Shown here piece by piece: positions 1,088 to 64,000 of a DNA stretch of 64,000 nucleotides (position 1 is its first letter; every line of letters starts with the position of its first letter). The DNA comes from Lingula anatina (Eukaryota > Animalia > Brachiopoda): contig CM120646.1 in NCBI GenBank assembly GCA_051362555.1, positions 22,010,001 through 22,074,000 of the forward strand. Reading direction: 5' to 3'. Position numbers and translations under genes: made by a program. Below the pieces are notes generated by a model. It made no database searches and was not told where the DNA came from. It was given only the letters and a program-made list of their open reading frames with translations.

Positions 1088-1474
1088 CTTCCTTGCCAAG
1101 TTGTGATGACGCCATTAGTGTTAGTCTACCCTCGTCTTACTCTGTACGCACGGGGCAGAGTGCCACACTGCAGTGTACATTTACTCCTCATGCAGTGGAG
1201 TACCAAGTGAAGTGGTCGTGGAATTTAGAGGAGTATGAACTAGTTGTAGCCAACTTAACTGGTACACCTGCAGTACGTCCCAATGGTGTTCTACAGCCAG
1301 CATGGAATGAAAGGTTGTCATTCCAGCCTCCAGCCTCACTTGTCATCAGTGGTGTCACTGCAGCAGATGCTGGGACCTACACATGTGGGGTGAAGATAAC
1401 ATTAACATACCCATCAACATGTTCAATAGCTAACAGTCGGTATTTTACATCAGATACAACCCTCTCTATTACAG
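1088..1474 (+). CDS. Gene A V-set Ig exon, copy 1
   Basis: tttccag|...ACAG|gtaaat, 387 nt, phase 1-1; ATLQCTF..VKWSW..RLSF..ASLVISGVTAADAGTYTC V-set signature. Confidence 0.9.
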
Positions 1475-1572: not shown

Positions 1573-4500
1573 CTGTCAAGTAAGTACAGCATGTAAATAG
1601 ACAATTTGTTATTCTACTGTGAATGAAAAAATAAAAAATACATGTATTTATAATAAGCAGGCTGAGTATGTAATTTATTAGTAACACGGCACAAGAAATG
1701 TCAGGATATTATTTTCTCATCTGCTTCAGATGAATTCTTATCACAATCCCATTTAGGATTCAACAGCTTTATGTTCTACATTTTACCTCTTGTCTTCAAA
1801 CATACAAAACTGATGAATATGTATAAAATGCAGGTCAAGTTCAAAAATCGGCCTGATCCGACTATTTTTCAGTATATTTTATCCGCTGTTATAAAAATAA
1901 AATATAAACCACTTTTACCTTTTGTCTTCAAACATACAGAAGTGATGAATATTCATAAAACGCAGGTCATGAACAAAAGTCAGCATGATCAGACAATATT
2001 TTCATAAGTTATGCTGTTTTATTTTCTTTTTTCAGAATATTTTATCCACTGTTATAATAATAAAATAAAAATTGTCTGGTTATGTCATTCCAGCTTCCTT
2101 GCCAAGTTGTGATGATGCCATTAATGTTAGTCTACCCTCGTCTTACCCTGTACGCACTGGACACAGCGTCACACTGCAGTGTACATTTACTCCTCATGCA
2201 GTGGAGTACCAAGTGAAGTGGTCGTGGAATTTAGAGGAGTATGAACTAGTTGTAGCCAACTTAACTGGTACACCTGCAGTACGTCCCAATGGTGTTCTAC
2301 AGCCAGCATGGAATGAAAGGTTGTCATTCCAGTCTCCAGCCTCACTTGTCATCAGTGGTGTCACTGCAGCAGATGTTGGGACCTACACATGTGGGGTGAA
2401 GATAACATTAACATACCCATCAACATGTTCAATAGCTAACAGTCGGTATTTCACATCAGATACAACCCTCTCTATTACAGGTAAATCCGGCAGTTGTAGA
2501 TGTTGCAGATTCTTGTAAAATATTTAAAATAGATTTTTTCTATTGCTGTCAAGATACATGTAAGTAGAGCATGTAAACAGACCGTATGTTATTCTACTGA
2601 GAATAAAAAAATTATAATAAATAGATTATGTAATATAACTGAGTATGTTAATAACGTGGCACAAAAATGTTGTCAGAATATTATTTTCTCATCTGCTTCA
2701 GATGAATTCTTGTCATAATCCCATTTAAAGTTCAACAGCTTTATGTTTTAGTTCCAGTTGAAGGTGTTTCTGTAACCCGTTCACGTGCCACAGGACATGG
2801 TGTAACCAAGGGAGACACTGCATATCTCAGTTGTACGTCAACATCAGGATCAACACCCATAACATATACATGGCTCCTGAAGAATACACCATTACAGCAG
2901 ACTGGCAGTGAGTTGACAATCAGCAATATACAACCAAACCAAGCAGGACCATACAGATGTAATGCCACCAACACCATATCATGGCAACAGTCCGGAACAT
3001 TCACATTTAATGTGTTGTGTAAGTGTCTCTGAACAAAAATTGCCAACTTCGACTAATGGGTAACTGTTACAATGATGATTTATTTCAGTGAATTTAAACA
3101 ATAAGTAGCCTTACAGAAAGAAGGGGATCGAATAATTAAATCTACAGTTATTATACAGAGCAGGCCCATGAACGTGTAAAGCAATTAATATATACAGAGA
3201 TTGCATGAAATAATTATGCATTTTAAACTGTAAAAAAAGGTAATGAATTGAAACATAAATGGATATATATATTTTATCTCAATGCCCTGACAACTGGCAG
3301 AACCTTTCCATACTGACAGGTTACAGTACAAATCAGCACTACCAGCTGTCCACTCGTAATACAATTGTTAAAAGAGAACTGGTATATAAAGTGGTATATT
3401 TTCTTCAGATGCCCCTGACAACTGGCAGAACCTACCTACACTGACAGGTTACAACTCAGCAGTAGACAAACTGGTCACTGGGGAGACATCAGTGACCTTG
3501 GCCTGTAGTGCACCTGATGGGAATCCCTTAGCGTCCTTAAGCTGGACATCAGGGTGTCCAAGTGGTACAAGGAGTGACCATTCCACCTCAAACATGTCAG
3601 AGATCAGACTGCAGTTTACCGTACAAACCATTCACCATCAAACCACGTGTGGTTGTCGTGCTACACATGCACAGGGCACACCTACATCTAGGGAGATACA
3701 AGTCACTTTTCTTGTTATACGTACGTAATAGTTTGTTTAGAATCCTTGTTAAGTGACTTTTCTTGTTACATGTGAGTAATTGTTTGTATTCAGTGAATTT
3801 TATCATGAGATAAAATGAATGAAACGTATATGTTATTGCCTTGAAGATATTTAGCTTTCCGTCTTTTTAATTAAACTCAATTCTCAGTTGTAAGTTCATG
3901 TATATGTACCGGTAATTGTCAATGTTCGATATTAGTATGCTAGAAACATTTTGTGATTGGTATATTTATCAAATCTTTCATTTTTCCATCTAAACATCCA
4001 GACCCTCCGAGCAGTGTGGGTATCACACCAAGTCCTCCATTACCGTGGTTGGCGACAGGACAGAACCCAACCACCAATGCCCAGCTGACATGTTCAGCTA
4101 CTGGTGGATATCCAACACCAACGTTATCATGGCAACGTAACTCTGTGTCTGTACCAGGGTCAACAACGTACACTTTCCAATCTGTAAACATCAGTGAAAA
4201 CCAAATGGAATACAAGTGCCTGGCTTCAAATGAATACACTACCACAAAGGGAGTTACTGTTCAGAAGGCGCTACGCCCTGAGGTTCAGTGTAAGTATGTA
4301 CAGTGCATGGTGTCGAGTTTGCCTGGTGTTTGTTGGCATATCAGGGTGTGGATTGCCATAGTGAAGTATGTAAAGATACTGTAATTAATCTGATTGAAAA
4401 TAAAGTTGGAAGCAGCTATTTCTACTTTTCTTACCAATTTTGTTTTTATTTCATACATTAATATTTTCAAACATTATAATTGTTTTCTCATTTATGCATA

Positions 4501-7287
4501 TGAATTGGTATTATATAATTGTTTTCATACTCTACATTTCCATAGACCACCCTATAGTTCAGGTAAGCGTCTCCCCCAGCAGTACCAGGAAGGTCAACGA
4601 GTCTGTCACTTTAATATGTACAGCACACGGCAATCCAACTGTCACTTCCTATAGATGGCAGAAAGGTAGCTGGACAACAGGACAAGCCAACCATACTATA
4701 CAACAACTGACCAAGGATGATACAGGACAGTATACCTGTACAGTAACAGCCAACTCAGCCAGACATGGGGATCTTATCTCTACTAGGGATATTACTCTTA
4801 CTGTACAATGTAAGTACCTAGTTGGCAGCGCGAGCGAGTTATTTCCAAAGTTGTAATTAATTCTCGACTGCGCTCGGAGGAGATCTCATACCTTGACGCA
4901 TGCGCAGTAGGAAGTTAGAAAGTAAATGGCGGTCGCAGTTGCTTTAAAAATGAGTCTGTCGATTTTGTGACGACTCAACTGATGAACCCCACAGCTTAGA
5001 GATACTTCTGCGCATGCGTCAAGGTGTCAGAGTCTCCTCCAAGCGCAGCCGAGAATTAATTACACGGCTGTTTCACAATCAGGGTGAACAATTAAATGTG
5101 GTTAATGTTACAAGTGTCTGATAAATTAACAATTTATGATTGGAGATTGCTGATAGACTAATATCAAAGACACTGTTCATAGGAGCAAAATAAAAAAAGA
5201 ATTATAATAATCGGATTACAATTTACAAAAATATAGCCAATTATGTGTTCAAAAAGTAACTATTTTTAGCTGTTACGGTGGGTCGTTTGCAATTAAGGTC
5301 ATAAAGATGATGCATTAGCTCTTTATGTCAATGATTTATGGTGAATATGATATTGGTATATAATTCTCACAACATCTGTCTTCTCTTCTAGCAGATTCAT
5401 CCAAAGATATGTTCTGAAAAAAAAATTGAACCATTTTGCAGAAACGGGCTTTGATACACATTTCACTTATTTTTGTTAATGCAATGAAAAACATATTTGA
5501 TTAAGCCAAATATTACTTTGAAGTCACCTACGTGATAATAAGATGAATTAACCATGTTATGACTTAAACATAATAAAGGAGTTGTGCATATGTAACCATT
5601 ATTATTAATGCTATGGTATTTATAATCATGAGCCCCTTGGTGTCTCCTACTTTTTGTAGTGTCCGTACCCCCCCTATCTGTTTTATTTAGGAATTACAGC
5701 ATATTCTGTCTGATTTTATTATTTTATAATGTCTACACTGTCATTTATTTTGCAGGAAGAAAATAGCACATAACCCCTTATTACGAAAAGATATGCAAGA
5801 ATTTGGTGCCAAATGTAGTGTCCGTACTCCCACTGTAGTGTCCGTACCCCCAAGTTATACATTAACCATTGGATAACTGACTACTTATCATTGATGATAA
5901 AACATCAAAATATGGTGCAAAATATTGTTTTAGACCATATAAAATACATTCATGTCTTGTGATGTTTAGAAAAAACATTGCATATAAATATATATTCGAT
6001 AAAGTGATACTGATTAATTAGAGTCAGGCAAGAGATTTTGCAAAGAAATAATATCAGTAAAGATGCTACTCTTTGCATTCAAAATGAACAATATTGGTTT
6101 GATTATATTGCCAAATATAGCTAATTGCAAAATAATAAACTGTATATGGATTAATATTCTATGGATTAATGCATATGATATATTTTGAGGCGGTACGAAC
6201 ACTTCAATACATGCATAATTAACAGTACATTTATTATACTCTCAGTGAATGAAGTATCAAATATGGATGACAATAAACAAAAAGCCAAATAGGAAAAAAA
6301 GGGATCCTGATAATTTCACTTTCAGCAAAAAATAATTTGAAAAAAAAAAAAAAAAACGTCAAAGAGCTAATATCCGTAAAGATAATCTTGCCGAAGCACG
6401 TAAGGAAGAGGTTATACGTTGAATGCACGTAACATAGAAGAGAAGCAAAAAAATCAAGAATCCTCCTAGGCTGGCCCAGCAAGAAAGACTAAAGTAAAGA
6501 GTAGAAATTAGGGCATACTGACAGAGAGTTAAGGAGAAGCAGAAACCCAACAATCCAGAAAACGGTAGAACAAGAGGTGCAAATTAACGAGAGATGAAAA
6601 AGAAGAAAAAACTCCAAAAGCAGGAATCAAAACAGAAAAAAAAGAAATGAATAAATAAAAAAGGTCAAGCAACAGAAAGAAAAGTTAAAATTAAAGTCTG
6701 GTGAATGAAAGTCAAACTGAATGACACACAACCAAGCTCCAGCATCCACTGAAAAACGTGCTATGGTGTTTCTCTAAAAAACTCTTTGATTAATACATGT
6801 ACTTGTATCCTTATGGTTAAAGTACTGCTGTTATATCTTTAGTTTGATATTTTTTTAGAATTTTGACAAAAACAACTGGTAAACAATATGATATTTCAGT
6901 TACAAAAGCATCAGTTACTTGAATGTGTAGTGTCCGTACCCCCAGATCATAGTCTAAGGGGCGTTCTGTTAATTTGAGCGTAGCACAAAAAGTAATTAAT
7001 ATTGTGCTCTAAAAATTGTAGATATCATAGTTAAGATATTATTCTTTTTATCTGTTACAAAATTAAACAAATGCATCAGAGTTCATTTTTCTCTCAATGT
7101 GACCCCTATTTTGTACCCCTGATTGTGAAACAGCCGTACAGCTTTGGAAGTAACTGGCTCGCGCTGCCAGTAATTACGCCGTGGTGTATTCAGGGCGCAG
7201 ACCGTGATCACAAGATACCGCCAATAATTTTTAGATTTTTAGAAAATAGAGTTTTCATGTGAACGAACCCTAAAACATTCATTATTA

Positions 7288-7348
<61 letters not shown>

Positions 7349-10300
7349 TATACTGACAAAACTGAAATTTGTAACTCATTAGATATTTTCTCTTGGTATG
7401 CCTATGACATGCTTTGGATGTTAACTAAAACAAGCTGTCTTTTGGTATTTATTTTTTTCATAACATCCTCTCAGATTATCTTATACTAGAAGAGAGCACA
7501 GATGCCTGCAAAGACAGCTCAAATCTCATTTTGTGTCTGTACATACTGTATATACATCACCTGTATCTTATTTTCCAAATGTTATGGCGTTTTATCTCTT
7601 TTTCAGCATATATGCAATACGGATAGCATATTTCGAGGAAAACCATTAAGCCAATTGTCTTTAAACTTAAAGAAGTGACCGATATTATTGGAAAAAGGTC
7701 AAGTTCAAAAACCAGCTTGATCGAACCATCTTGCCATAAGCTGTGCTGTTTCCCCTACTTTCAGCATTCAGGTATAGGGAAGACCGGGGCTAGTTGGCCC
7801 AGTTAGACACTTTTGGCCTTGTAGAGCCAACTAGGAATGTGTTAGAGTAACATAACCGTTTTCAAAGTAAGCCCCATGAAATAAACTACATATGCAACGT
7901 CATTATTTTTCAAATTTAATGCCAGATGGCTCACAATTTGACAAAAAACGCAACTGATTTATTGAGGTTTCCGTCCGTCACGTTGTATGTGTTGTAAGAA
8001 TCAAAATATCTATCAACAAAATTTTTCTTTTAATTGAGAATAAATTATAAAGCAGGTTTTTGAATGAAAACGAATAATAAATTTTCGTTTTAAAAGAAAC
8101 TAACAAATTCAGTTTTAAACTGGTAATTATTTGTTTCAACGATGGTCTGTAGCTCTTTTGCGCACAAAGGATTGTGGTCAATATGGGGGTCCAACTTACC
8201 CCGAGCCAAGGGGGGCAACTAGACCCAGGTCCACATCTTTTAAATTTAAGGATTGTAGCCGTTAATTGTGCAAGAATGGACTACGTTAATACAATTTTGT
8301 AACATTTCAAACAATTAGCTTTAGTCTGATGCCATATAGGGCCTACGTATACTTTGTTCGATCAAAAGCCTATGAAAATAGATTTTTAAATCTCTTAAAC
8401 AAAATTACTTTTAGGTGCAAAAATCGTTTATTTGGACTCACCGCTTAAGTAAATTTTTTTAACGTCCGACACTTCCTTAGCATTGTAGGCTACGGTCACT
8501 TTACAAGAGTATGTGGCCATTTTTTTTTTACCTCGAAGTTACTTTTTCATAAATTGCCCGGGGGGGGGGGGGGGAGCAACTTACCCCCGGGGTCCAACTA
8601 GCCCCGGTCTCCCCTATATGCAGCAAAACAGATAACACGATATAATAATATATCTTCAACCACCACAAAAATGGGAAATGGTGCATGTGTGTTCTTGTTT
8701 CTTCCACTCCCTTTGAATATTTACAACGTAAGTTACATCATTATTGTTATTACATTTTTTTAAATAATTTCAGATAGGCCAACTGTCACTGTCACAGTTA
8801 AGGGTAATCCGGTGACAGTGACCGAGGGGGATGACGTCACGTTACAATGTACTGCACGTGGCAACCCTCCTGTATATACGGATTATAAGTGGACGCACAT
8901 TGCGTTTAGTAGTTTAGAGTCTCAAGTAGTGTCTACTAGGAGAGAGTTGGTGTTGTCACGTGTCACATATCTAGACAACGGTGAATACGTTTGTGGTGTT
9001 AGAAACAGCGTAGGACAAGGGTTGGGGAAGAAGAGGCTGGACGCATTGTGTAAGTATAGACATTATAATAGGATATGATATCGGAGAACCAAATATGAAT
9101 GGAGTAGGCCTATATGGTAGTAAAAATGCGATGTGAACAGAATCTGAGAGTAAAAATGGATTAAATATAAATGCATTTTCAACAAAATGTTAAAAAGTAA
9201 GATATCAGTGATTATTTGATAAAACTTATTTCAGATTCACCAAAGATCGCAGTGGGATCACGTATAGTTGCTGCATCTATCGGCGAACCAGCCACATTGT
9301 CTATCTCAGTTATGGCAAACCCAGCCAATGTTTCGTTTACCTGGAAGAAAAGTGACGGTGATAAGAAATTGCCAGTTGTCTCCAGTATTGTCCTTACTGA
9401 TCCAAGTTCATTGAAAAGTAAACTGTTTATTCCCAGTGTACAAGGAAGTGATTACGGACAGTATGTGTGCACAGTGTCACACACAGTGGGTAGCCGGGAA
9501 TTTACTTTTGAGATAAGACCGAAAGGTACAAGAAAATTCTTTGACAGTGTCAGTCATATCTTGCGTGATGTTTAGAATCCGTAAAACGATACAAATATAA
9601 ATAATGACATATGGATTTTCTTTATTTCATTTATTGGCATTAGAGAATCTAACCATAAAAAGTTCGTTTTTAATCCGCATGTACATTTTCACACACTGTG
9701 TCCGATATCCATGTCACTTTACCTTTTAATCAATGCCAGGACCCCCAGAAAGACCCACAGATTTCAGGATCTTAAGCTGGACATCGGTTTCCGTCACATT
9801 AACCTGGATGTCCGGATTTAACGGAGGCAGTAATCAATCATTTCACATCCAGTACAAGGAGACGTCTAGAACTCGGTGGCAAAGGAATGGCGAACTCGTC
9901 TTCCCTGATCCTGGTTACATGAAGATATCCAAGGCAAAAGTACCCGATCTCAACCCAGCCACGTCGTATGATTTTCGTTTGGTTGCTATCAACAATCACC
10001 CGTCCACCAATAGCAGTGGCTTTACTGGCGCTTTTACACAGAAAACAAAAGGTATTTTTTGTTGTTTAAACGTGCATGTCCAAAAACAAGAATGAAGCTT
10101 TGGATAATTTCAGAAGGATGGCCTAATTTCGCTATGAACCACATATTAAACTTTCACGTGATTTATGGTTCATTCCTCACATCTATAAAACTATGAGCCA
10201 GTTAAAAGTGAGCGTTTTCTGCTAGATATTGAAGTATACATGCAAATATACTCAGTTTATGATTAAGCAATGCGTCGTTCATTCTATTAAATAATGACTA

Positions 10301-12002
10301 CTTTTTTTTCAGCCAGACCCAATGTCCTAGACGATAAGTTATCCGTCTCCATCATGTCCACTGTGGCTACTGTTGATTGGACAATATCAAGTGGAATCGA
10401 GGACATCACCAGCTACGTGGTTAAATACTGTGAGAGAGGCACCATGATTTGTAACAGGCAGAGATTGACAAACAGTACAGCTACCTCCGCCATTATAACC
10501 CTAGATGAAGGATTCCAGGACTACACGTTCTCACTGCTGGTTTATGAAGAAGATGATCTGGTTAAGGTTATAGATCAACCCACATCGGGTGAGAAAGGTG
10601 TCAAAATATCAACTTACCAATCCAAACTATTCACCCTATACACTAAAGTGCACATACTAGTTAGTTTTATAATAAGGGCAATGGAATTAATCTTTGCATC
10701 TTCTTCAAGAAAATATGCATATGTTATAAATGCATTGTTCAGAAGCGTTTTTCCGAAATCTGTGTGTAATAAATGTCGATTTTCTGACAACACGTTAAAC
10801 CATAACCCTTTGTGTAATTTCATGTTGAATAACCCGTGATCTATGAATCTGTAGGCCGATACATTATCCACAATACAATGTTAATATCTAATTACCGTTA
10901 TTTACCGAAATAATTGTATCGTTTATACAGATCTAATCGAAAATCAAGTAGGCATGATAGCTGGCATCATCGTTGCTGTACTCGTGCTGCTTATATTGGC
11001 AATTATAACCACGGTGGTAGCGCGTCATGCTCAGAAGAAGAAAAGGGGAAGAGGTAGGACTGTTTTTTTATAATTGTTCAGTGGTAAATTGTCTTACACA
11101 TTTTAGTTTTAATAAATTAATGTGACACATAGTATTACACATGTTAGTGTAAATAACATGCATTGCACAATGTGGCGTCTCAGTTCAGAATAAGAATTAA
11201 AAAAAAAAAAAAGAGTTTATATCAGAATTAACAGAAAAGTCCATCACCCAAAGTATAACTTGATGCACCTGAATAATTCCTAATATTTAGATGTCCCTGA
11301 CCGAGAGACATCAGCGACAGGTGGGATAACTGAGATGAATGACCTAAACTCACAACAACAAGTGGTGAGTAGAATTTATCTGCGTTTCATTGTTTGAAAA
11401 CAAGGTTGTGTTGGGCGTTTTTCGTTGTAAGGCAGTATTGTTATGATTATTGTCAGTGTTATGTTTCAGTTATGGTTGGCATATCATTATAGAATTGACA
11501 ATTGTATGTGTTTTATTTAATTCTTCTGAGGGTTTAATTATTTCTCCGGTGTTCCATTTTATTCTATTGTAATTTAGAACTTGCCCAAAATATATGTATG
11601 TAATGGTTTGTCCATGTGTGAAATACACAATACGGCTGTATATAATAAGTCACGTACTCACCAGCTGCGAATTACTTTAACCCTTTGGCAATGATACTTG
11701 AATATCCATATCCCAGATTTAGCATGGAATTAGCTATTCCATGGACACGTTATCGCTTTTTTAGTAGTTTTACTTAATTTGCAAACAGATGGAGAAGTAT
11801 AATTCTATTTTTTCTTTTAACGGTTTTTCTTGCCTATTTACCCTTTAATATCTTTAATCTCGTAAACATACCTGTTTTCTTATGTTCTATTTTGTTTCAG
11901 AAATCGACCGCTAATGAAAATAACGTGTATGATGTTCTTGACCAACAAGGTCTTGAAGCAGCAATCTACACTGACCTGCAACCCCATAATGAAATACGAT
12001 AA
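1088..12002 (+). CDS. Gene A: kinase-less Ig-superfamily type I membrane receptor (2 V-set + 6 Ig + 2 FN3 + TM + short tyrosine-motif tail); 5'-partial
   Basis: AG/GT-bounded, frame-compatible exons: 1088-1474 (V), 2094-2480 (V), 2758-3018, 3409-3720, 4002-4289, 4546-4809, 8774-9049, 9235-9525 (Ig, with C..W..YxC-type motifs), 9740-10051 and 10313-10588 (FN3, e.g. PPERP..LTWMSGFNGG..F.IQY..LNPATSYDFRL), 10931-11053 (TM: VGMIAGIIVAVLVLLILAIITTVVA then RHAQKKKRGR), 11291-11364, 11901-12002 (KSTANENNVYDVLDQQGLEAAIYTDLQPHNEIR-TAA). No signal-peptide exon found in the window. Confidence 0.85.
1491..1570. repeat. (TA)n microsatellite
   Basis: Pure TA run; others at about 7293-7348, 18456-18496, 18525-18595 and 61399-61464. 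Confidence 0.95.
1780..2060 (+). repeat. Old dispersed repeat with about 140-bp subunits; related copies at about 7600-7775 and 39030-39300
   Basis: Shared CAGGTCAAGTTCAAAAA..GATC.GAC..TTTTCAG.ATAT motifs. Confidence 0.6.
2094..2480 (+). CDS. Gene A V-set Ig exon, copy 2 (tandem duplicate)
   Basis: Same 387-nt length and splice sites as 1088-1474; six amino-acid differences; the downstream intron is duplicated too. Confidence 0.9.
4820..7172. mobile_element. Fold-back MITE split by a nested 2.1-kb element
   Basis: Left arm TGGCAGCGCGAGCGAGTTATTTCCAAAGTTGTAATTAATTCTCG...TTGACGCATGCGCAG; the complementary right arm is broken at 5064 and resumes at 7137 (..GCTTTGGAAGTAACTGGCTCGCGCTGCCA). Confidence 0.85.
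5065..7136. mobile_element. Non-autonomous DNA transposon, about 2.07 kb, 4-bp TSD
   Basis: TIRs CGGCTGTTTCACAATCAGGG / CCCTGATTGTGAAACAGCCG flanked by TACA on both sides; internal TGTAGTGTCCGTAC repeats at about 5655, 5815, 5834 and 6926; no transposase ORF. Confidence 0.85.
7777..8614. mobile_element. Non-autonomous TIR element with TA(TA) target duplication (Tc1/mariner-pogo-like)
   Basis: tata-GGGAAGACCGGGGCTAGTTGG ... CCAACTAGCCCCGGTCTCCCC-tata. Confidence 0.85.
11901..12002 (+). CDS. Gene A terminal coding exon with tandem YxxL motifs
   Basis: tttgtttcag acceptor, phase 0 matching the donor at 11364; translates ...VYDVLDQQGLEAAIYTDLQ... with TAA at 12000-12002. Confidence 0.75.
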   Translation, partial: KSTANENNVYDVLDQQGLEAAIYTDLQPHNEIR

Positions 12003-13708
12003 GTCACCGAGGATTTCATACTGAATGTAACAATATACATACGATATATAGTGATAATTCTTCAAATGTGCGAACATAGCCAGTTTTCTTCTGTTTCACT
12101 TCCCCCAGACATAACCATAAACTTAAACGATATGTACAATTAAATATGTTATTCATACACCCTAAATGAAGTAAGAATTGGGATTTACATAAAGTTTTAA
12201 ATATTGGTGGAACTAGTGGACAGCACACCCCGGCGAGTAGTATATGTAGGCATTTTGTGTACACGTGAGGGTTACACCCGCTATTGATATCAATAAGTGT
12301 ATTTAAGTCGTATTAGAGAAGAGTGAGTGGATTAGAACTTTCCATGGGGAAAACCACAGGAAGTGTGCACTACAGTCGCGTTCGTTCTTTCTTTTGCATA
12401 TATAGCGATTAATAATTTTGTATCTACAAATATATCAACTGTGTATTAAAGAACATCTGATGTTTGAAACGCAACCCATGCTTTTATAAGGCGTACACAA
12501 TCACTCGAGCAGCTGTGTCTTACAGGTACGTGGATTGATTACCCCGTGTTTTCTATGATGAGATATGTGGCAAACTGTACGAAATGAACGGAAGGAAACC
12601 AATATGAAATAAGCATCAGTCCAATACGACGATGAATAATGTTTATGATTTGGCGTACAACAAATAATATTAGAAGCAAATTGGGTGAATCAAATCACAT
12701 GTGATATGATCTAATGGTAATCATTAGCGGAATTAACTATGCCGACTGAAATAAATTTTCACATAATGAGTAGTATAAAAAATATCTTCATTCGAAATTG
12801 CGCTTCGTAAGTCATTCCATTGAGGGTGGCTAAATAGTTGCATTTGACAGGGACCACCGCATGCTTATGTAATGTCTTTGAATGAGCAATGAAGTGAAGT
12901 TGCCGGAAAGAAGCGCAATCTCGATCAAAATGTTTATGTATTACAAAATACTAGTTACTCTCCAATATGTCCAGAAGTTTAACAATGTGCATTAACATAA
13001 ATAATAATATTGTGAAGTCCATGTGTCAAGGCGACCGATCATTGTGTTAGTTGTCACAGACTACAACGACCACAACTAACACAGCGCAGTATATCCCATC
13101 AGTCTCACTGCCTGGTACATATTCGCTCTTTTATTTTACTCGGCACGATTTACAATTCAGGTTAAGACAACAATGGCTTCCTACAGTTCATGGTCCTTAA
13201 AAAAGAAATTCATACAATTTTATTTTTGGACATTTCAGCATGTGAAATGTACCTCTATATTGGTTTTGGGTGTACAACGACCACAACTAACACAGCAGAG
13301 TATATCCTATCCGGTACTAATTGGCACTTTTATTTTACTCGGCACATTTAAAGTTAAGGCAAACAGTGTCCTGCTACAGTTTATGGTCGTACAGTCGTAT
13401 TCCTTCTTAACAGGTTTTTGCCGTTTATGCATCAACTATTTAATAATATTCGTCAGTATAAATAGTATGATGTAATGAGTCTGTAAAACCTGGAGTTTTC
13501 GCGAGTGTTATTGAAATAGAAAATCCAGGAAGTGTGCCGTAAGTATCACACCAAGTCCACCGTTGCCGTGGTTGGCCACAGGAGAGAAGTGAAGAAATAT
13601 GTGTGCCGTTTAGACAATCAAAGCAAGGGTCTCGTCTCTCTCTATTGGTTTGATGGACGAGCCAAAAATGGATTGGGAATAAAATCACTTGACATTCATT
13701 GGTGTGCT

Positions 13709-14246
13709 TCATGGAGTACCTGTCAAACGGAGATCTACTGACATATTTACGGAACGATCGCTCACAAAACAAAACACTTAACGGTAACGTAGATGGCGAT
13801 AGTTTGTCTTTGACATCACATGAACGCACGCTTTTTCGAAGACAATATCTTCAGATTCCCCACAGAGATCTCAGGCCTACCCAACTACCAGATGCGGCAC
13901 GGAAGGATCCAGATTTCACCGTGGATCGGATCACGCTACCGGTTTTCAAGGTGTGTAGCAGTACGCGCTTCGAAGTATCAGACGCGGCACCCTCGCATCA
14001 TCGCTATCATATCGAGTACCAGGCAAGAAGGTGACGCGTCTGAAACTTCGAAGCGCGCACTGATACACACCTTGAAAACCAGTCAGTTCTCCGGTGAATT
14101 CTGGAACCTACTGTGCCGCATCTGGTAGTTGTGTAGGCCTGGATCTCGCTGCCAGGAATATTTTGGTGGTTGAAGACAAGATGTGCAAGATTTTGGACTT
14201 GGGCTTTGCTAAGGACGTGATTGAAAGCCACCAGCATAAAAGAAGG
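13709..14246 (+). pseudogene. Tyrosine kinase relic (fragments of two kinase exons paralogous to gene B), interrupted by a MITE
   Basis: MEYLSNGDLLTYLRNDRSQNKTLNGNVDGDSLSLTS matches gene B MEYLSKGDLQTFLRNDRSINKTIYGNLHGNSLSLTS; caatatcttcag|IPHRDL [insert] [32 protein letters not shown] matches exon 29159-29281. DFG is changed to DLG, most of the intervening intron is deleted, and other kinase exons were not found. Confidence 0.9.
13872..14141. mobile_element. Fold-back MITE inserted in the HRDL codons of the kinase relic
   Basis: Ends CAGGCCTACCCAACTACCAGATGCGGCAC / GTGCCGCATCTGGTAGTTGTGTAGGCCTG; internal arms are also inverted repeats; GATCT is duplicated on both sides. Confidence 0.9.
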
Positions 14247-14329
14247 TTACATGAACTAAGGAATTTGATACTTTAAAAGTATTTTAAATATTTAAAACTT
14301 TCTGTTCATAAAACGTCATATTCTATGAT

Positions 14330-15808
14330 AGGCCACGGTCACAACCTGAAGTACGAGTTTGAGGAGAGTAGGTCCCCTGCGAATTTGGGTGCAGCGAAGG
14401 TCGTTCGTGGATGTCGCAAAGGTACAGGAAATGTTGGAAAGACTTCGTCAGAACGGCGCGAGAAAGGCGGCAGTCTGCCTTGCTAGTCGCAAGGGCCATG
14501 TAAGATTTCCTTTCAAGCAGGGACGCTAAGTGCAATTGCCGTGGAAATCGTACACACATTGAGTTTGCCTTGCTCCCTTCGTACTTGGTACATGTACATA
14601 CTCACCACATATGATGAGAAGGAAGGCACGACGAAACTAATTCAAACTTACGACATTTTTGTGTCACACTTGACTCCCACGCTTGCGATGCATCCTCCCC
14701 TTGTTTCTTCTTTCTCCTCTCTTCTTTTCTGATCTCTAAGCTTCTTTCTCTTGTGTTTTGGAGGCTTATTGAAAACTAATTAAGCAAAATTTGAACTTTT
14801 GGACATTGGCTGAATGTTATTCGTCGCACAATCGGTGTTCACTGGCGATGTGGGGGTGACTAAAGCCTCGGTCACCACCGGCTGTACTGGCTCTTACACT
14901 GTAAAAACAGTGTTTAGCACATTTCTAAGCGCCTGTTTTGTCTCATTTTTTCGACGCGTTTAGCTCCTAAGCACGTTAAGGTCCTTAACATGTTATACGC
15001 TTTGACGCGTTTGACGCCTTTTAAATGTACAGGGTACTTATGCAATTTCGAGTTCGCAGACAGCCCGTAAGCACGAACGGAGGATGTTGGACAAATCCAA
15101 AAGATTCTACGAATAGCCTGCGAACAGCGAGGTCGCAAGCGTAACTTGCTCCCCTCGCAGAGAGTTAGCAAGAGAGACGCGCGTTGTGCAAGACGCACGC
15201 CGCAAGCAACGAAGGAGCAAGAGCCCTTTGCGTGTTGAGTAAGGCGCACGCCCTCACAACTAACGAACAAAGTCGAGATCACACCGGGAATGCGTCGCAC
15301 GTGCGTCACCCGCACGCCTGGTGTATAAAAGACGTGCTCACGACGCACGCTCGTGTCTTTACAATGAATCTGAATCGACGGTGTAATGTGTACAACAATT
15401 TTCAAAATTTTAAATTTTTTGCTCAATTTTGTTTCTATTATGCCTCCAAAAGGCAAGAGAAAGTAGCTTACATAGTAGAAAAAAGGTAGGAGGAAGAAGA
15501 AAGAAGAGGAGAACAGGAAGCAAAACTGACGTACGCAGTCAGCACGTGACCACAAACGTGTGAGATTGCATTCCCTTCGTAAGTGGTGAGTGTGTGCCAC
15601 GTACACAGGAAGCAAGACAAACTCAAGAAATGAGTACAATTTCCACGGCCATCGATCCTTGCAATTAGCGTCTCTGCTTGAAAGGACATCTCATGTGGCC
15701 CTTGCGACTCGCAAGGCAGACTTTCCTCTACATCTACGACCTCCACGGCCTCCGCAACACTCAAAAATCGCAGGGGGCGTACGATCCTGAAATTGTGACC
15801 GAGGCTTA
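14330..15808. mobile_element. Two adjacent, oppositely oriented R1 fragments (about 14330-14800 plus; about 14862-15808 minus)
   Basis: Terminal motif A(A/G)GCC(T/A)CGGTCACA at 14330 and 14863 and inverted at about 15795-15808; bodies match 322-810 and 52737-53349. Confidence 0.75.
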
Positions 15809-16623: not shown

Positions 16624-16907
16624 CCCGCACGAAAACGCAGTAGATACTCCAGCGCAGTAGACTACTGCAATCATACTGCAAACATGCTTCAAATCTGCTT
16701 CGATTTGGGAGCTAATTAGCATACTTGAAACATGCTTCTATCATGCTGCTAATCTACTGCATTAATGCTCCTCTCTGTACAAACCTATGTACTTTTTGGA
16801 GTAGAATTGCAGTAGGCTATGCTGCATTTTTACTGCGAATATGCTCCAGACCACTACTGCGTTAATGCTTCTTTGCTATTTCGATACTACTGCATTTTCG
16901 TGCTGGG
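16624..16907 (+). mobile_element. MITE family R3 copy
   Basis: About 285 bp, TIR CCCGCACGAAAA; four copies in the window. Confidence 0.88.
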
Positions 16908-18776: not shown

Positions 18777-30358
<11,582 letters not shown>

Positions 30359-32110: not shown

Positions 32111-32145
32111 ATAAGTCTGAAACCGACCACAAACATTAAATAACG

Positions 32146-32420
32146 CCTGCAAGAAAACGCAGTAGATACTCCAGCGCAGTAGACAATCATACTGCAAACA
32201 TGCTTCAAATCTGCTTCGATTGGGGAGCTAATTAGCATATTTGAAACATGCTTCTATCATGCTGCTAATCTACTGCATTAATGCTCCTCTCTGTACAAAC
32301 CTATGTACTTTTTGGAGTAGAATTGCAGTAGGCCATGCTGCATTTCTACTGCAAATATGCTCCACACCACTACTGCGTTAATGCTTTTTTGATACTTCGA
32401 TACTACTGCATTTTCATACG
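32146..32420 (+). mobile_element. MITE family R3 copy
   Basis: Same body (GCAGTAGATACTCCAGCGCAGTAGAC...), degenerate ends. Confidence 0.85.
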
Positions 32421-34714
32421 TACGAGTTGCTGGAAGGTTATTATTATTGTCATTATTATTTTTATTATTTTTTATTTTTAGAATTTTATTTGCAGATTCA
32501 TGGTCCACCACCCAGTTTGTTTGTTTTTTGTTTTTTATTAATTTTTATTAATTATATGATTTATTAGATAAGTTCATTTATTTATTGTATATTATATCGA
32601 ATGTTATTACACTTTCTGACACAGAGAGATGTGACATTCTGGCACGATGCCTATCAATGAAGGAAAAAAGCAAATTTTGTTGAGATCTTATTTATTTTGC
32701 ACAGTGACTATTGATATTTGTGTCTGAGAATATAGAAATAGTAGTTGTTTGTATTTTTTTTGTCAATATAAAAGGCTTTTGAGGTGACTTGTGGTTACTG
32801 TTATATTATTTTAGAGACTGTGTTAAGCAAGAATTTGGGACACAGGGAATGGTGACTTTTTATGTGTCAATATGACTAGTGCTTTTGCACCTGTTTTTAG
32901 TTACAAAATGGGGCCAACTTTCTGACCGCACTTTTCCATAAACAACAAAAATAATTAATTCAGAGAAATAATATGAAAACTTGTTCAGAATTTATTTCAA
33001 AGTGAGAAGACAATTAACTCGTTTTCTTTCTTTTGATTGGTGTCAGTCCTGCCCAACTACCAGGCGCGGGATCCCCCAACATTTCACATTATAGTATCAG
33101 ATTTCAATTCTGTACTGATTCTATCCTTCTTCAGTCCAAATTAGTGTTAAAAAGTCAACCAGGTCAGTAGGCAGGGGAGAATTGAAGGGGGGGTGAGAGA
33201 AAGACTTCCTTTTGGCTGGAAAAGGCTTACTCTTTATCAAAATATGATCTGGTTTATACGTCACTGTTTGGTTAACTAAAAGAGTAAATTATTTTTGAAA
33301 AAAAGAACTCCCTTTGAAATTGTTGTCATCAGAGGCCCCCAGCTGGCCATAGCAAGGAGGACGTGTACACATATCATACATTGCGCTGTATTCAGCTCAG
33401 TTACCAAGAACAGCTGATAAATGATACACTGATAAATTGTTGTACCTATGACGGATAATGGGGATATATTAGTTAATATAGCCACGTCATAGTGATTCAT
33501 TGCAGAGTTTTGGGACAGACCAGGTAGACATGTGATTTTTGTTTGTAGTATACGAAAAATATCAGGGAAATATTTGTGAAATACTTTTTGGATAGGTTTT
33601 GCATTAGTATTTAGAAAGACTTTCCCCAAGTATAATTTTTTAAAATTAAAATTTACATTGTAATTACTTTAATTGCTTAGCATGCATCCACGTTTTAATT
33701 CATTCATATTTCTTAAAAAAATAAATGAAATAATGCAGTCCAGTAGCCAATTGATCCATATTTCATGGTTCAGTTTATACGAGTGCTAGCAACTGATATA
33801 TCAGGTTTTGTAATGTACCTGTACATTTGAGAATTTAGGTATCTTTTCTTGAACAGCTACAGAATGACGAAAATGGAGAATTGGCTATGCAGTACACTAT
33901 GAACTAGTCTTATACGTAGATGTAAGCAGAGTAATCTGCCTCAGGACTGTTGTTCAGAAACCTGGAAGAACAAATATGAGAACTGGATGGAGGGGTGATT
34001 GGGGGGGGGGGGGGGGAGGGGGGCGGATCAGCCAAAAAGGCCATTAAAACTGAACTGGGCAAATCACAGCACAGAAATACGTTAACAACTAAGAGAGAAA
34101 AAAGTCTCAGTATAATTCTTAACCATGCACTTAATGTAAGCAAAGTGAGTTCAACACCAGCCACTTTTCAAGACTATGGTCAAACTATAAAAAACATCAA
34201 CAACAACCAAAAAAAATATATAACAGAATATGATACATCAGGTGACAATATATATAATAAACATCAATATTATTCGTCATACAATAATGTAGTAATAGTA
34301 AAACTAATTTAAAAATGTTTTTATGGAAGTGTTTTGGTTCATATCCTCAGTGCCGCCTTTGTTCTTTGTTAGTCATATTGAACTGCTTAAAATTTCAACA
34401 CGAAAAGAGGTGACACCATACAGACATAAACTTGGGTTGTGACATGCACATCTTGATTAATCTCCCAGATCGACCCGAGTGTTTACATTTTGGGAAGGAT
34501 TAAGTTACCCCTTCACCTTTTTAACCTTCCTGGTTCAATACAAACACTTGGCTGCAGATGAAAATCCAGGTCAAGGTCCACTTGTAAGTAATGGGGCCAT
34601 GGAACAGATAATCAGTGATTGTATTCTATCAACCATGTCACTGGGAACTGGACAATACAATTCAGGCCCTGCATGTGTATTTCTGTGATAGTGTTGACGA
34701 ATGTCCGCATTGTT

Positions 34715-45847: not shown

Positions 45848-45881
<34 letters not shown>

Positions 45882-59313: not shown

Positions 59314-61397
59314 ATGGGAGCCAGAAGCGAGTCAAAGCAAACCTTGATATTTATATGGATATATTCACTTATAAATTTCACAGTCATTGGGATAACAAAA
59401 GGTACGTTACTATGTACATTGTGTGGTGCTTTGGCCGAAAAATAATGCCACCAGCACACATTTTCATGTACGAAAACATACCTTTAACTCTGCTATGAAC
59501 TTGATATCGTACATAATCTAAATAAATATGATATATTTAGTAATTTATCTGGCGTCTATTGAAAAGTAGATCAATCGAGCTTCTGCACATTATCAAATTA
59601 GTTTCGATCCCCTTTCTAAATAATAGCTAATACACCAACCTATATCAGGTAATAGGTATATAGGCTAATTTTCGTGATATAATCTTGTAAAGGGATGAAG
59701 TTACGACCCATACCAATTGCTATCTCAGCCCAAAATAGAAAGGTGTAAAATTGTCGATTAAATTTAAGCTTTGAGTTGCCTATGCTTATACATTGCAACG
59801 AAAAAAAATATAAACGCTGATATTTTATATTTTCAAGGCTTTTTTATTGTTTTAAATCTGTACAAAGATACATTTTCAGTATCTGGATGGTAATAAAGGG
59901 TTACAATAGCCTTAATATCAACCATGATTGGAATAAAGACCAACCGCACGAAAACGCAGTAGATACTCAAGCGCAGTAGACTACTGCAATCTTACTGAAA
60001 ACATGCTTCAAATCTGCTTCGATTTGGGAGCTAATTAGCATATTTGAAACATGCTTCTGTCATGCTGCTAATCTACTGCAATAAAGCTCCTCTCTGTAAA
60101 AACCTATGTACTTTTTAGAGTAGAATTGCAGTAGGCTATACTGCATTTCTACTGCAAATATGCTCCACACCACTACTGCGTTAATGCTTCTTTGCTACTT
60201 TGATACTACTCCGTTTTCGTGCGGGTTAATTAAGTTTTCGGCTTTTTCAGGGGCTTAAAAATGCAAAACAATATTTGGCTTTCACTTGTCTTTTATATAT
60301 AAATAGGTGCATCCTGTAACTGGTTAGTTTCAACGTCTTCCACATTGGATGGTGTTCTAGGAGGATCTGTTGTTCTACCATGTTTATTTACTATAAGTAA
60401 CGGGGCTGCTCCTGTCTACACTGTCACATGGATGACCTCCAGTAACACCCTGGTACAGACATATTTCAATGGTGTACTCCAACCACCAAGCACCAACACA
60501 TGGGGAGGCAGAGCCAGCCTCACTGACCAGGCATCTCTGAGGCTGAACTCTATAACACAGCAGGACGGTGGACAGTACACTTGTAAGATCCGTTTGGTGA
60601 TTGTAACAGGTTGCACAGTAGATGCAAACGACTTCGAGAGACGGGCTCATACCAGGATTGCCGTGACAGGTAGGAAGTGTATTATGTAGACTCTCACTTC
60701 TCTGGTTTGCACCTGTATAGTAGACGCAGTGGCGGATTTAGAGGGGGGTTCAGGGGGATTCTGACCCCCCTTTTCGATTTCTGAAAAATATATCAAACCA
60801 ACGGTCCTCTCTAAAAAATAAGAATTTTGACTAGCTGAATCATACTTGTTAACAGTGCCAAATGGCACCGTTCGTCCTCTAAAATACCAAAATAATTCGG
60901 GGCCTTTCAGTGGGCCCCGAGCCCCACGCGAAGGAGGGGGGAGGTCTGCTTCGCATCCGTAGATCCCCCCTTCAAATAATAATTGGTCCGTCCCTGAGAG
61001 GGGACAGGTAGTGTTGGTAGATTGCTTTAAGTCATTTTCTGTGCGCCTAGGATAAGGGTACATTATATATCTAACTCGAGTATCCCACATCAGAAATACC
61101 ACGCCAAACTATGTTTTGCAATATTCTTCCCCAACATTAACTTAGAGCAAGAATCACGGCTAAATATCAGCACTACATTTCAGGACCAGATTTACACTAT
61201 AATATAAATCATTTACAATAGAAATAAAAGTGTATGAAATTACCATAGCTAGCTTTATGTGCGATGGCTAGAAGTTAACCAGAACTTGTTTCATTTCTGT
61301 CCTACTCTATTCAGTTCTGATGTGGTCCGTTAGTAATACAAAGTGCCAAACCTGGAAATTACATCTCCATTTTTGGGCCTTTTTATGGACCGAATTG

Positions 61398-61466
<69 letters not shown>

Positions 61467-63780
61467 GGCCTCAGAAGAGAAATAATTCAAGTGATTAATG
61501 TTTGTTTCAAGAACATTTTATTCTAAACTCTAATCTCTAGACCATTGAAAACGTAGTAGATGAAGTCGTATTGGAATTGACTACAAACAGTTTAATACAA
61601 AAAGTATGCAAAATGCACATTTAATTCCCATCAATAGCCAACCAACTACAACTGGAATGTTAAAGTTTCTTTTAAATATCAATCGTATGCTGTCCCCATT
61701 TTCTTTGAAACAGGTAATTTCATTAACTTCATTTTAGTAAAACCATCTAATATGACAATTAGAGGTCTAAGCGGACTTGTTCCTGAGGGGATGCCAACTA
61801 GTGTCCAGTGTACCATAGGACGAATACTATTACCAACTCCATATGACGTCTACTTCAAACAAGGAGATGCTACGGAGTACAAATTGTCAGGTTTATCAAC
61901 CTCCAGTAATTCTGATGGTACCATATCTGTCACAGCGTCTACATCTGTCCAGCTTGATAAGTCAGATAATCGGAAGCCATTCCAGTGTATTGTGAGGAAC
62001 AGAGGAAATGGGACTGCCCTAGGATCTACTAATGTTACTATGCAGGTGGCATGTACGTAACGGGTACAGTTTTAGCTGCCATATTAGCAATTAAGTAAAT
62101 TACCGGATGCTGTTCGATGGATAGATTCTCATTTCTCAACACGTGGTATTTTAAACCGTGGTCTTTTAAACAGAAGTACATACATTTTGCACTGGCATCG
62201 ACACTTATAAGCTCTCGCACTGAAAAGGTCCACAACTATATACATATACTTATCATGCTTAACTCTATTTTTTCCAGATCCACCAACATCAGCATTATTA
62301 TCCCTGGTTGAAAAAAGTACATCTGACCCCATCCAAGCAGGTGACCAAGTTGTATTCCAATGTACAACACTAGATGGTAACCCAGCTCCAATCCTCCAGA
62401 TATATAGAGGAAGTACTGCAGTATCCAATACAGGATCCTCACCACTGAAGTACCCTAGAATCATACTGGGCAGTGATAACCTGGCTACATTCACATGTAA
62501 AGCCACTACCACGGGACTATCTGGAGAAATAACATCTAATGTACTCAACTTGGCTGACATACACTGTGAGTTTATATACGTATCATGCATGAATTCTAGT
62601 ACATATATTTTCCGAAAGCAGAGCATCAAAATGATCCACTATTGTCAAAGTTGGAAATGGGTAATTGAAATGTTACTTTTCATTTTGTTTCGATTTTTTT
62701 ATAATTGATCATGCATTTTTTTTATCTTTTTGACATATTTTATTCGATATCTTCATTTAACATATGTCTGATGGGATAACTATGTTTCAGATGTGTGCCT
62801 ACAATTACAGGTACTTTAATACTATCTATTTACTGTGTCCAGAACATCAGTTTACCCGTGTTATTGCAGTTTTTTCATGGTCCCGTAGGGTGAATCCTCC
62901 TCACTTCCGTCACATGTTCAGATGCTGCAAATATGGTGACAGCGGATAAATATAGATGAACAACTGTTAGTTTGTTTCTTCCGTTTTTTTAGAATGATTT
63001 TCAGCACGGGCGATTTAATGACTGCTATTCCCTTTTCTCAAAATAATTTCAGATAGACCAACAGTCACGGTAACACTTAAGGGTAATCCGGTGACAGTGG
63101 CCGAGGCGGATGACGTCACATTACAATGTGATGCACGTGGCAACCCTCCTGTGTATACGGAATATAGGTGGACGCATATTACATTCAAGAGTCCCGAGTC
63201 TCAATTAGTGTCAACTGGGAGAGAGTTGGTGCTGTCACGTGTTACATATTTAGACAACGGTGAATACGTTTGTGGTGTTAGAAACAGCGTTGGACAAGGC
63301 TTGGGGAGGAAGAGGCTAAACGTACTGTGTAAGTAGATAGTTAGCATATAATATTGCATAACTACATATAAATGGAATATGGTATCCTTTAGTGTTGAAG
63401 ATAATATCTTTTACCAAATCACTGTGAACATACTTTAAAATGTAGGGCATCCTTTTAATGTATTATTAATAAAATAAAACCCATTTCAGATTCACCAAAG
63501 ATCGCAGTGGAATCACGCATAGGTTCTGCATCTATCGGCGAACCAGCCACATTGTCTATCTCAGTTACCGCTAACCCAGCCAATGTTTCATTTTCCTGGA
63601 AGAAGAGAGTTGGCGATGGCAGGGAGCCTGTTGTTGCCGGTGTTGTCCTTACTGATCCAAGTTCATTGAAAAGTAAACTGTTTATTCCTAGTGTACAAGG
63701 AAGTGATTACGGACAGTATGTGTGCACAGTGTCACACACAGTGGGTAGCCGGGAATTTACTTTTGAGATAAGACCGAAAG
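59314..63780 (+). CDS. Gene D: Ig-superfamily receptor paralogue, 3'-partial (SP, V-set + 4 Ig; continues past window)
   Basis: Exons 59314-59401 (SP), 60307-60669 (V: VVLPC..VTW..GRASL..ASLRLNSITQQDGGQYTC), 61738-62052, 62278-62565, 63053-63328, 63490-63780. The last two exons and the following intron are near-copies of gene A 8774-9739. Confidence 0.88.
59944..60225 (+). mobile_element. MITE family R3 copy (gene D SP-V intron)
   Basis: CCGCACGAAAACG ... CGTTTTCGTGCGGG. Confidence 0.88.
60727..60996. mobile_element. Probable hAT-like MITE in a gene D intron
   Basis: CAGTGGCGGATTT ... TTGGTCCGTCCCTG imperfect inverted ends; no TSD recognised. Confidence 0.5.
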
Positions 63781-64000
63781 GTACAAGAAAATAATTATTT
63801 GACAGTGTCAGTCATATCTTGTGTGATGTTTAGAATCCGTAAAACGATACAAATATAAATAATGTCATGTGGATTTTCCTAAATTCATTTATTGGTATTA
63901 GAGAATCTAACCAAAACATGTTCGTTTTTAATCCGCATGAACATTTTCACACACTGTGTCCGACATCTATGTCACTGTACCCCCCTTTTAATCAATGTCA

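What the first reader, a model, noticed from the sequence alone, without database searches (positions are those of the whole stretch)
11291..12002. ITAM-like tail apparently made by truncating an RTK at its juxtamembrane tyrosine motifs
Seen: A ends ENNV-YDVL-DQQGLEAAI-YTDL-QPHNEIR-stop (two YxxL, 9-residue spacer, acidic residue upstream). B has SE-YTDL-Q and SP-YTEL-Q just before its kinase, and both genes have a 123-nt TM exon followed by a short phase 1-0 exon containing MND/MDD. Known: the ITAM consensus is YxxL/I-x6-8 (up to about 12)-YxxL/I and binds tandem-SH2 kinases such as Syk or Shark. Inference: a non-catalytic tyrosine-motif receptor may have arisen from an RTK by a stop after the juxtamembrane motifs, a plausible evolutionary route from RTK to ITAM/ITIM receptor.
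Basis: partly seen in the sequence, partly recalled or inferred. Interest (0 to 1): 0.78.

Follow-up and report, generated by a model that had tools for sequence, protein, structure and literature searches.

The report
Tyrosine tail shared with neighbouring kinase
A brachiopod cell-surface receptor gene is spliced and ends in a two-tyrosine tail whose exon is likely the same ancestral exon that the neighbouring receptor kinase gene uses just before its kinase, so one splice site would separate a kinase receptor from a likely immune-type docking receptor, though which form came first is unresolved.

Summary
Gene A (Ig-FN3-TM; nearest named relatives are from Lingula anatina) ends in YDVL-x9-YTDL and a stop. 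RNA shows the 11364-11901 junction and a 3' UTR past the stop. B's YTDL exon is also spliced in.

The interpretation needs correcting. A is not a recent truncation of B: its 3' half is 25-40% identical to B but its Ig6-FN3b domains are 85-89% identical to a kinase-less paralogue, while its five distal Ig domains are 74-98% B-like. A's last exon aligns without gaps to B's 90-nt juxtamembrane exon, YTDLQ at the same codons. B has GT after codon 30 and splices into the kinase; A has GA and stops three codons later.

The tyrosines are conserved but the ITAM is not: the paralogue has YEVP, and B-type reads have YETP. All 7 nemertean relatives examined lack a kinase, so kinase gain is at least as likely as loss; trees do not decide. 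Invertebrate ITAM-bearing Ig receptors are known; the exon-level link to an RTK was not found in print. The scan noted a look-alike sea urchin cluster on other DNA (unchecked).

The parts
1088..1474 (+). Gene A, duplicate V-set Ig exon (open, AG/GT ends)
   Evidence: 97% identical to 2094-2480 over 300 nt; open, dN/dS 0.39
2094..4809 (+). Gene A 5' half: five Ig exons (2094-2480, 2752-3018, 3409-3720, 4002-4289, 4546-4809), B-type
   Evidence: Pfam Ig hits; 74, 82, 90, 89, 98% identical to B; splicing to the 3' half not tested
8774..10588 (+). Gene A 3' ectodomain: Ig6 8774-9049, Ig7 9235-9525, FN3a 9740-10051, FN3b 10313-10588, C-type
   Evidence: 85-89% identical to P0001, Ig6/Ig7 85-86% to gene C, 31-40% to B; junctions seen in RNA
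10931..11053 (+). Gene A transmembrane exon (123 nt)
   Evidence: skipped in one X3 contig (joint listed as 10586->11289, depth 20.8)
11291..11364 (+). Gene A short cytoplasmic exon, phase 1-0
   Evidence: joints on both sides in the X3 contigs
11901..12002 (+). Gene A last coding exon: YDVL-x9-YTDL, GA at 11991-11992 where B has its GT donor, stop at 12000-12002
12003..12755 (+). Gene A 3' UTR; transcript seen to 12663, AATAAA/ATTAAA-type signal at 12750 (end inferred)
   Evidence: X3 contig record 8
13539..14242 (+). Wreck of a B-type RTK copy: Ig4 scrap 13539-13588, kinase scraps 13709-13823 and 14142-14242, foldback element 13872-14141 inserted in the HRDLAARN exon
   Evidence: 88%, 88% and 86% nucleotide identity to B; inverted arms
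18777..30358 (+). Gene B: signal peptide, 7 Ig, 2 FN3, TM, juxtamembrane exons, FGFR/RET-like tyrosine kinase; open throughout
   Evidence: kinase class from its relative P0024
27341..27430 (+). Gene B 90-nt juxtamembrane exon, positional homologue of A's last exon (CETP or YETP at codons 10-13, YTDLQ at 23-27, GT donor after codon 30)
   Evidence: RNA joints; anchored alignment
27703..27880 (+). Gene B first kinase exon with SPYTEL, which has no counterpart in A by exon position
60307..64000 (+). Gene C, cut by the window end: own V/Ig/Ig exons, then Ig6 and Ig7 of the same type as A's 3' half; tail not visible

Best explanation
Gene A is a spliced, kinase-less Ig/FN3 receptor whose last exon is likely the same ancestral exon as the juxtamembrane tyrosine exon of the neighbouring kinase receptor B, and it likely signals by having its two tyrosines phosphorylated in trans to dock SH2 proteins. 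Shown: B splices from that exon (GT after codon 30) into its kinase; A has GA there and reads three more codons to a stop and a 3' UTR; A's distal Ig exons are B-type and its proximal half is of a second, kinase-less subfamily. Inferred: the conserved unit is Y-E/D-x-P, nine residues, Y-T-D-L, with tyrosines 13 apart. A's ITAM-shaped first half would be a single Pro-to-Leu change from it. Ligand binding through B-like Ig domains would cluster A, and a Src-family kinase or B-type kinase would phosphorylate it, so A and B would act like paired receptors with shared recognition and different outputs. The kinase-less tail is likely the older state, with the kinase spliced on in the B lineage (about 0.5, against 0.4 for kinase loss and 0.1 for no homology).
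For: RNA junction and UTR for A and junctions for B. Anchored ungapped match to B's 90-nt exon: A 7 of 30 identical, p = 3e-4; P0001 9 of 30, p = 2e-5; DNA 37 of 90, p = 0.0015. Its scores (+16, +29) exceed all 65 other acceptor-anchored control peptides of the window (best -13, -2). In X10 and X11 reads codon 10 of B's exon is Tyr (changes at 27369-27370 in 33 of 33 and 29 of 29 reads), the position of A's first tyrosine. P0001 keeps both tyrosines, the spacing and the stop position. Mosaic identities per exon; dN/dS 0.04-0.63 in all 8 exon pairs tested. 7 of 7 nemertean relatives examined have TM plus a tyrosine-bearing tail and no kinase, and 1 of 176 fetched proteins (P0024) carries an HxDLA/R kinase motif.
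Against: Without the YTDLQ block the A-to-B match is not significant (positions 1-22: p = 0.19 for A, 0.013 for P0001), and the shifted register scores 21 vs 18 for A. The register was noticed after seeing the sequences. Both trees leave the backbone unresolved, and Lingula monophyly is neither shown nor rejected (p-AU 0.238). The outgroup search used A's FN3 only and returned mostly multi-FN3 proteins. FN3-bearing RTKs with a similar kinase are widespread. The join of A's 5' and 3' halves and A's signal-peptide exon were not seen. No phosphorylation or binding was tested.
Confidence: 0.6

Rival explanations
1. One reading: an old RTK of this family lost the splice donor after its juxtamembrane tyrosine exon, which gave the kinase-less subfamily (A, P0001, probably C).
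For: GA in place of GT followed by a nearby stop is what donor loss looks like. Kinase copies in this cluster do decay (13539-14242). FN3-TM-kinase receptors with similar kinases occur in cnidarians, arthropods and chordates.
Against: No kinase trace follows the stop: DNA local score 23 vs shuffled 23.1, protein scores at shuffle level in 3 of 3 frames. The relatives found outside Lingula have no kinase. The downstream kinase scraps follow an Ig4 scrap and keep intron sequence, so they are better read as a separate collapsed B-type copy.
Confidence: 0.4
2. A's tail is a working ITAM that recruits Syk or Shark, as in oyster CgIgR.
For: Fits Yxx[I/L]x(6-9)Yxx[L/I] as defined in PMC9546547. Oyster CgIgR with a similar tail is reported to bind Syk (PMC6994640). 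The pattern is rare in shuffles, 0.08%.
Against: Fails the strict x6-8 form and the D/E-x-x-Y form. The closest paralogue has Pro at +3 of the first motif, as does B's exon. Whether alleles of A keep Leu could not be read (181 differences not shown). Syk or Shark in this genome was not checked.
Confidence: 0.35
3. The tails are unrelated. YTDL-type motifs are common in invertebrate receptor tails and arose separately in A and B.
For: Tyrosine motifs fill the tails of most relatives examined (13 of 14 tails have tyrosines; 2 have ITAM-shaped pairs). The TM and short exons are only weakly alike (p = 0.014 and 0.20).
Against: Same exon rank, same phase, same codon positions for E6, Y10, P13 and YTDLQ across A, P0001 and B-type reads, within a colinear Ig6-Ig7-FN3a-FN3b-TM series.
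Confidence: 0.1
4. This copy of A is a dying or non-functional mosaic: two gene fragments side by side, with the RNA coming from sister copies.
For: No signal-peptide exon was found in the window. A 3.96-kb gap separates the halves. No raw read was 99% alike, and a wrecked copy lies just downstream.
Against: All 12 modelled exons are open with intact splice sites. One contig is 99% identical over 11900-12663 and spliced. dN/dS is below 1. P0001 shows another N-terminal Ig type joined at the same place, though that is an automatic model.
Confidence: 0.2

Closest known systems
Oyster CgIgR (five Ig, TM, ITAM; PMC6994640, passages read)
   Same: Lophotrochozoan Ig receptor with no kinase and a two-tyrosine tail; its tail has YTEL and YEKL motifs.
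   Different: CgIgR is reported to bind Syk; A is untested. A has FN3 domains, and its tail exon is shared with an adjacent RTK. No sequence comparison with CgIgR was made.
Hydractinia Alr family (PMC9546547, passages read)
   Same: Clustered Ig + FN3-like + TM genes and pseudogenes with ITAM- or ITIM-bearing tails more divergent than the ectodomains.
   Different: No kinase-bearing member is described in the passages read; A has 7-8 Ig domains; no allorecognition evidence here.
Vertebrate paired receptors, Siglec-5/14 and Siglec-11/16 (PMC13358205, passages read)
   Same: Linked genes with near-identical distal Ig domains and different cytoplasmic signalling, attributed to gene conversion.
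   Different: Here the pair is kinase versus tyrosine tail, not inhibitory versus activating; analogy only, and shared ligand is untested.
Nephrin/SYG-2-like Ig-FN3 receptors (names given to relatives; YDxV motifs from the listing and abstract start of PMC11247170)
   Same: Many Ig domains, then FN3, TM and a phosphotyrosine docking tail without a kinase.
   Different: A has a second Cys-bearing FN3-like domain, a 69-residue tail and no YDxV; it is a lineage expansion, not shown to be a nephrin orthologue.
FGFR/RET-like RTKs; kinase-less RTK offshoots such as FGFRL1 and the Geodia RTK/adhesion-molecule set (both recalled)
   Same: An RTK and a kinase-less receptor sharing an Ig ectodomain.
   Different: The recalled cases were not verified: one search returned one review that names a Geodia Ig adhesion molecule but not an RTK link. 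Here the switch maps to one splice donor.

Membership tests
ITAM receptor | Single-pass membrane protein with a cytoplasmic YxxL/I pair, spacer 6-9 or 6-12 | tested here: met
   YDVL-x9-YTDL; definitions
ITAM receptor | Strict spacer of 6-8 and D/E at -3 of the first tyrosine | tested here: not met
   spacer 9; Glu at -4
ITAM receptor | Both YxxL/I halves conserved among close relatives | tested here: not met
   P0001 has YEVP in the first half; one paralogue tail only; alleles of A not readable
ITAM receptor | Tail is transcribed and terminal | tested here: met
   joint 11364->11901 and UTR to 12663
ITAM receptor | Dual phosphorylation and binding of a tandem-SH2 kinase (Syk/Shark) | not testable with these tools
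   needs phosphopeptide binding; no genome is held to look for Syk; the passages of PMC5978004 read do not name brachiopod Syk
ITIM receptor | [I/L/V/S]-x-Y-x-x-[L/V/I] | tested here: not met
   no match in the A or P0001 tails; B's SEYTDL and SPYTEL do match
Truncated derivative of RTK B | Membrane-proximal ectodomain, TM and tail closest to B | tested here: not met
   25-40% to B; to P0001 85-89% in Ig6-FN3b, 60% TM, 71% short exon, 42% last exon
Truncated derivative of RTK B | Tail exon homologous to B's juxtamembrane exon | tested here: met
   anchored tests and Tyr allele; rests mainly on YTDLQ
Truncated derivative of RTK B | Kinase-bearing state is ancestral | tested here: inconclusive
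   trees unresolved; outgroups found are kinase-less
Paired receptors | Linked genes, near-identical distal ectodomains, different tails | tested here: met
   Ig1-5 74-98% identical at the genomic level; the transcript joining A's halves was not tested
Paired receptors | Same ligand, opposing or distinct outputs | not testable with these tools
   needs ligand and signalling assays

The most novel reading that the evidence does not exclude
A brachiopod receptor cluster caught switching between two signalling classes with one exon: the tyrosine exon is a terminal docking tail in one subfamily and the juxtamembrane segment of an FGFR/RET-like kinase receptor in the other, toggled by a single splice donor. 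Recognition modules are swapped between them like paired immune receptors, and a working Syk-binding ITAM was made in gene A by one Pro-to-Leu change. This would be a traceable route between RTKs and ITAM receptors, possibly running from tail to kinase.
Probability: 0.25. Interest if true: 0.72.

Novelty: new variant of a known kind. Interest (0 to 1): 0.5.

Why it matters
ITAM-type tails are known on invertebrate Ig receptors, but where such tails come from is rarely traceable. Here a kinase receptor and a kinase-less receptor in one cluster share a tyrosine exon codon for codon, the difference maps to one splice donor, and the ITAM shape is one substitution from the paralogue's motif. That makes two questions testable with short peptides and a few more genomes: whether an ITAM can arise by a point change in an older SH2-docking motif, and whether invertebrate RTK diversity grows by splicing kinases onto existing adhesion or immune receptors. 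If the tail does not bind Syk/Shark, this is an ordinary lineage-specific Ig-receptor expansion with an unusually clear exon history.

Tried and rejected
No whole genome is held, so gene C's tail and Syk/Shark could not be searched. The look-up of sequencing runs listed no RNA holder by index. Raw RNA runs of the same species label were laid instead, and two holders marked 'DNA?' (X3, X4) showed spliced joints. My predicted 36-nt B exon (27264-27299) is rejected: no depth and skipped in RNA. An internal donor at 11950 in A's last exon is phase 1 and no joint uses it. Kinase remnant in A's UTR: none. The idea that the 13.7-14.2 kb scraps are A's own kinase was considered; they are B-type, about equally close to B and P0024 (71/68% and 79/76%), and follow an Ig4 scrap, so a separate collapsed copy is preferred but not proven. 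The six-frame motif count was inflated by AT repeats and redone masked. Two trees (20 and 11 rows) did not resolve direction. Atlas searches gave generic Ig/FN3 and RTK clusters only. Literature searches found no paper on this family or on an RTK origin of ITAM tails; the library lacks most subscription papers and no supplements were read, including those of the Lingula genome paper, which may list these genes. The Draper paper PMC2493287 is not held. No fold or complex prediction was run, since binding depends on phosphotyrosine.

Full report
Setting. The window is animal DNA with a tandem cluster of Ig-superfamily receptor genes on the + strand. The closest named proteins are from the brachiopod Lingula anatina: P0001, 89% identical to A's FN3a exon, and P0024, 82% identical to a B kinase exon. 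Exon models built from coordinates give gene A (989 residues as modelled, no signal peptide found, ending at 12002), gene B (an intact RTK, 18777-30358) and gene C (60307 to the window end). One B acceptor (20038) lacks AG, but an in-frame AG lies 6 nt further on. Pfam confirms the Ig, FN3 and kinase pieces; 20 of 22 exon translations had some hit, the two blanks being A's last exon and B's FN3b. P0024's kinase is nearest to FGFR1-3 and RET among solved structures, apart from a top row labelled EGFR.

Observation. All stated features are present. Reads were laid on 8640-14400 from three RNA runs and one contig set. The junction 11364->11901 stands in one X3 contig and in 3 X16 reads, and that contig runs on through the stop to 12663 with 8 other letters and 1 gap. 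No joint leads out of the last exon. Depth on the tail was about 1 or less in raw reads, X13 had none there, only 6-25% of each raw run was read, and no raw read was 99% alike, so these reads are other alleles or paralogues. For B, the TM, 50-nt, 90-nt and first kinase exons are spliced in order; a 36-nt exon I had predicted is skipped. B therefore carries YTDL, ten residues, YTEL across an intron, which itself fits the relaxed x6-12 ITAM pattern, and both halves fit the ITIM pattern. P0024's model lacks the 90-nt exon and has YIDM only.

A is a mosaic, not a cut-down B. Per-exon identity of A to B is 74, 82, 90, 89 and 98% for Ig1-5, then 31, 38, 40, 36 and 25% for Ig6, Ig7, FN3a, FN3b and TM. 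The same 3' exons are 85, 89, 89, 85 and 60% identical to P0001, and Ig6/Ig7 are 85-86% identical to gene C. P0001 is kinase-less, and its first Ig, only 46% identical to A's Ig5 and by eye of the P0004-P0006 type, is joined at the same point. Recognition halves and signalling halves thus appear to be exchanged at the intron between Ig5 and Ig6 (inference). dN/dS is below 1 in 8 of 8 exon pairs (0.04-0.63), highest in the V domain. The splice joining A's two halves was outside the stretch laid and is untested.

The tail exon. A's last exon and B's 90-nt exon both follow the short phase 1-0 exon and start in phase 0. Aligned from their first codon without gaps they share E6 and YTDLQ at 23-27; P0001 shares these too, and has P13 like B. 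Position 10 is Tyr in A and P0001, Cys in the window's B, and Tyr in all X10 and X11 reads covering it (33 of 33, 29 of 29); X3 and X4 show no change there. In those reads the spacing from the preceding exon looks two codons shorter (loose ends), so the anchor at the exon start is not exact in every copy. Shuffle tests give p = 3e-4 (A), 2e-5 (P0001) and 0.0015 (DNA, 37 of 90), and no anchored likeness to the first kinase exon (p = 0.62, 0.41). 65 other acceptor-anchored peptides of the window score at most -13 and -2, against +16 and +29. After codon 30 B has GT and splices to the kinase; A has GA, three more codons and TAA, and P0001's protein ends at the same position. No kinase trace lies in A's UTR.

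Is it an ITAM? It meets the x6-9 and x6-12 definitions given in PMC9546547, PMC6994640 and PMC13358205 (passages read), but not the x6-8 or D/E-x-x-Y forms, and it is not an ITIM. The one paralogue tail in hand has YEVP. With P13 also in B, parsimony makes Y-E-x-P the older first motif and A's Leu (CTT against B's CCT) derived. From established knowledge (recalled): I/V-Y-E/D after acidic residues suits Src-family kinases, and pYxxP suits Crk/Nck/Abl-type SH2 domains. The conserved function is therefore more likely a general two-site SH2 dock, with Syk/Shark binding possible for A only (about 0.35).

Direction. A profile-free search of 1.84 billion representatives with A's FN3a gave 737 hits, 150 listed, mostly multi-FN3 proteins. 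I inspected 19 with few matched stretches and looked up names for 10 proteins. Six Tubulanus and one Lineus (nemertean) proteins have this FN3, a TM and a tyrosine-bearing tail with no kinase; four of them (P0071, P0076, P0078, P0170) also match a profile of the Cys-bearing FN3b. Four Gigantopelta relatives with a TM are also kinase-less. Only P0024 among 176 fetched proteins has the HxDLA/R motif. Trees place B with P0024 and the partial P0004/P0005 models (tails unknown) and A with P0001, but leave the backbone open (p-AU 0.238 for a Lingula clade). FN3-bearing RTKs with similar kinases are widespread, and the search was biased to A's FN3. I put kinase gain at 0.5, loss at 0.4 and non-homology at 0.1.

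Downstream kinase scraps. Two pieces 86-88% identical to B's kinase exons lie 1.7-2.2 kb after A's stop, after a 50-nt Ig4 scrap and split by a foldback element with 57-59-nt inverted arms. They keep an intron acceptor, so they are genomic debris of a B-type copy, not spliced to A.

Mechanism. Shown: splicing, stop, UTR, exon correspondence (statistical) and mosaic identity. Inferred: surface expression of the full mosaic, ligand shared with B, phosphorylation in trans, SH2 docking and an immune role. The closest described systems are oyster CgIgR, the Hydractinia Alr cluster and vertebrate paired receptors. Searches found no description of this family or of this route; the library is partial and supplements were not read. 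An earlier scan note (e1-8152653) describes a sea urchin cluster with tyrosine-motif receptors and kinase loss; I did not check it and it is not support.

Verdict. A real, expressed feature: a new variant of a known kind (invertebrate Ig receptors with tyrosine-motif tails), with a traceable exon link to an RTK. Interest 0.5.

Noticed in passing
window 10588->11291: One X3 contig (depth 20.8) skips the TM exon in frame, which would give a soluble form that still carries the tyrosine tail; a nearby piece of equal depth has 15 other letters in 181, so it may be a paralogue.
   Followed up: no
window 27341-27430 and 27703-27732: RTK B itself has an ITAM-shaped YTDL-x10-YTEL in its juxtamembrane region, both halves also ITIM-shaped; the P0024 model lacks the first half, so it may be a cassette exon or paralogue difference.
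   Followed up: partly
window 13872-14141: A 270-bp foldback element inserted in a kinase exon remnant; related copies are common in RNA reads.
   Followed up: partly
window 14184-14241 and 11000-11026: Loose read ends show further expressed paralogues: at least two other kinase versions and two other TM-exon versions, one reading like P0001.
   Followed up: no
window 37795-38849: A V-set Ig exon followed by a second exon with no Pfam Ig hit that ends in a stop: possibly a small secreted Ig protein or another gene fragment.
   Followed up: no
window 45438-49078 (-): Broken non-LTR retrotransposon-like frames (endonuclease- and reverse-transcriptase-like, judged by eye), with inverted arms at 45919-46010 and 46496-46587.
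   Followed up: no
window 16625-16906, 18985-19271, 32141-32422, 59944-60225: A 280-300-bp repeat in four copies, one in B's first intron and one just before gene C's V exon.
   Followed up: no
window 21040-21343 and 23141-23198: Partial tandem duplicates of B's Ig3 exon start and Ig5 exon end, signs of frequent local duplication.
   Followed up: no
P0009-P0014 (Gigantopelta), P0064-P0089 (Tubulanus): Expansions of Ig-FN3-TM receptors with short tyrosine-motif tails in a snail and a ribbon worm, automatically named nephrin-like or NCAM-like.
   Followed up: partly
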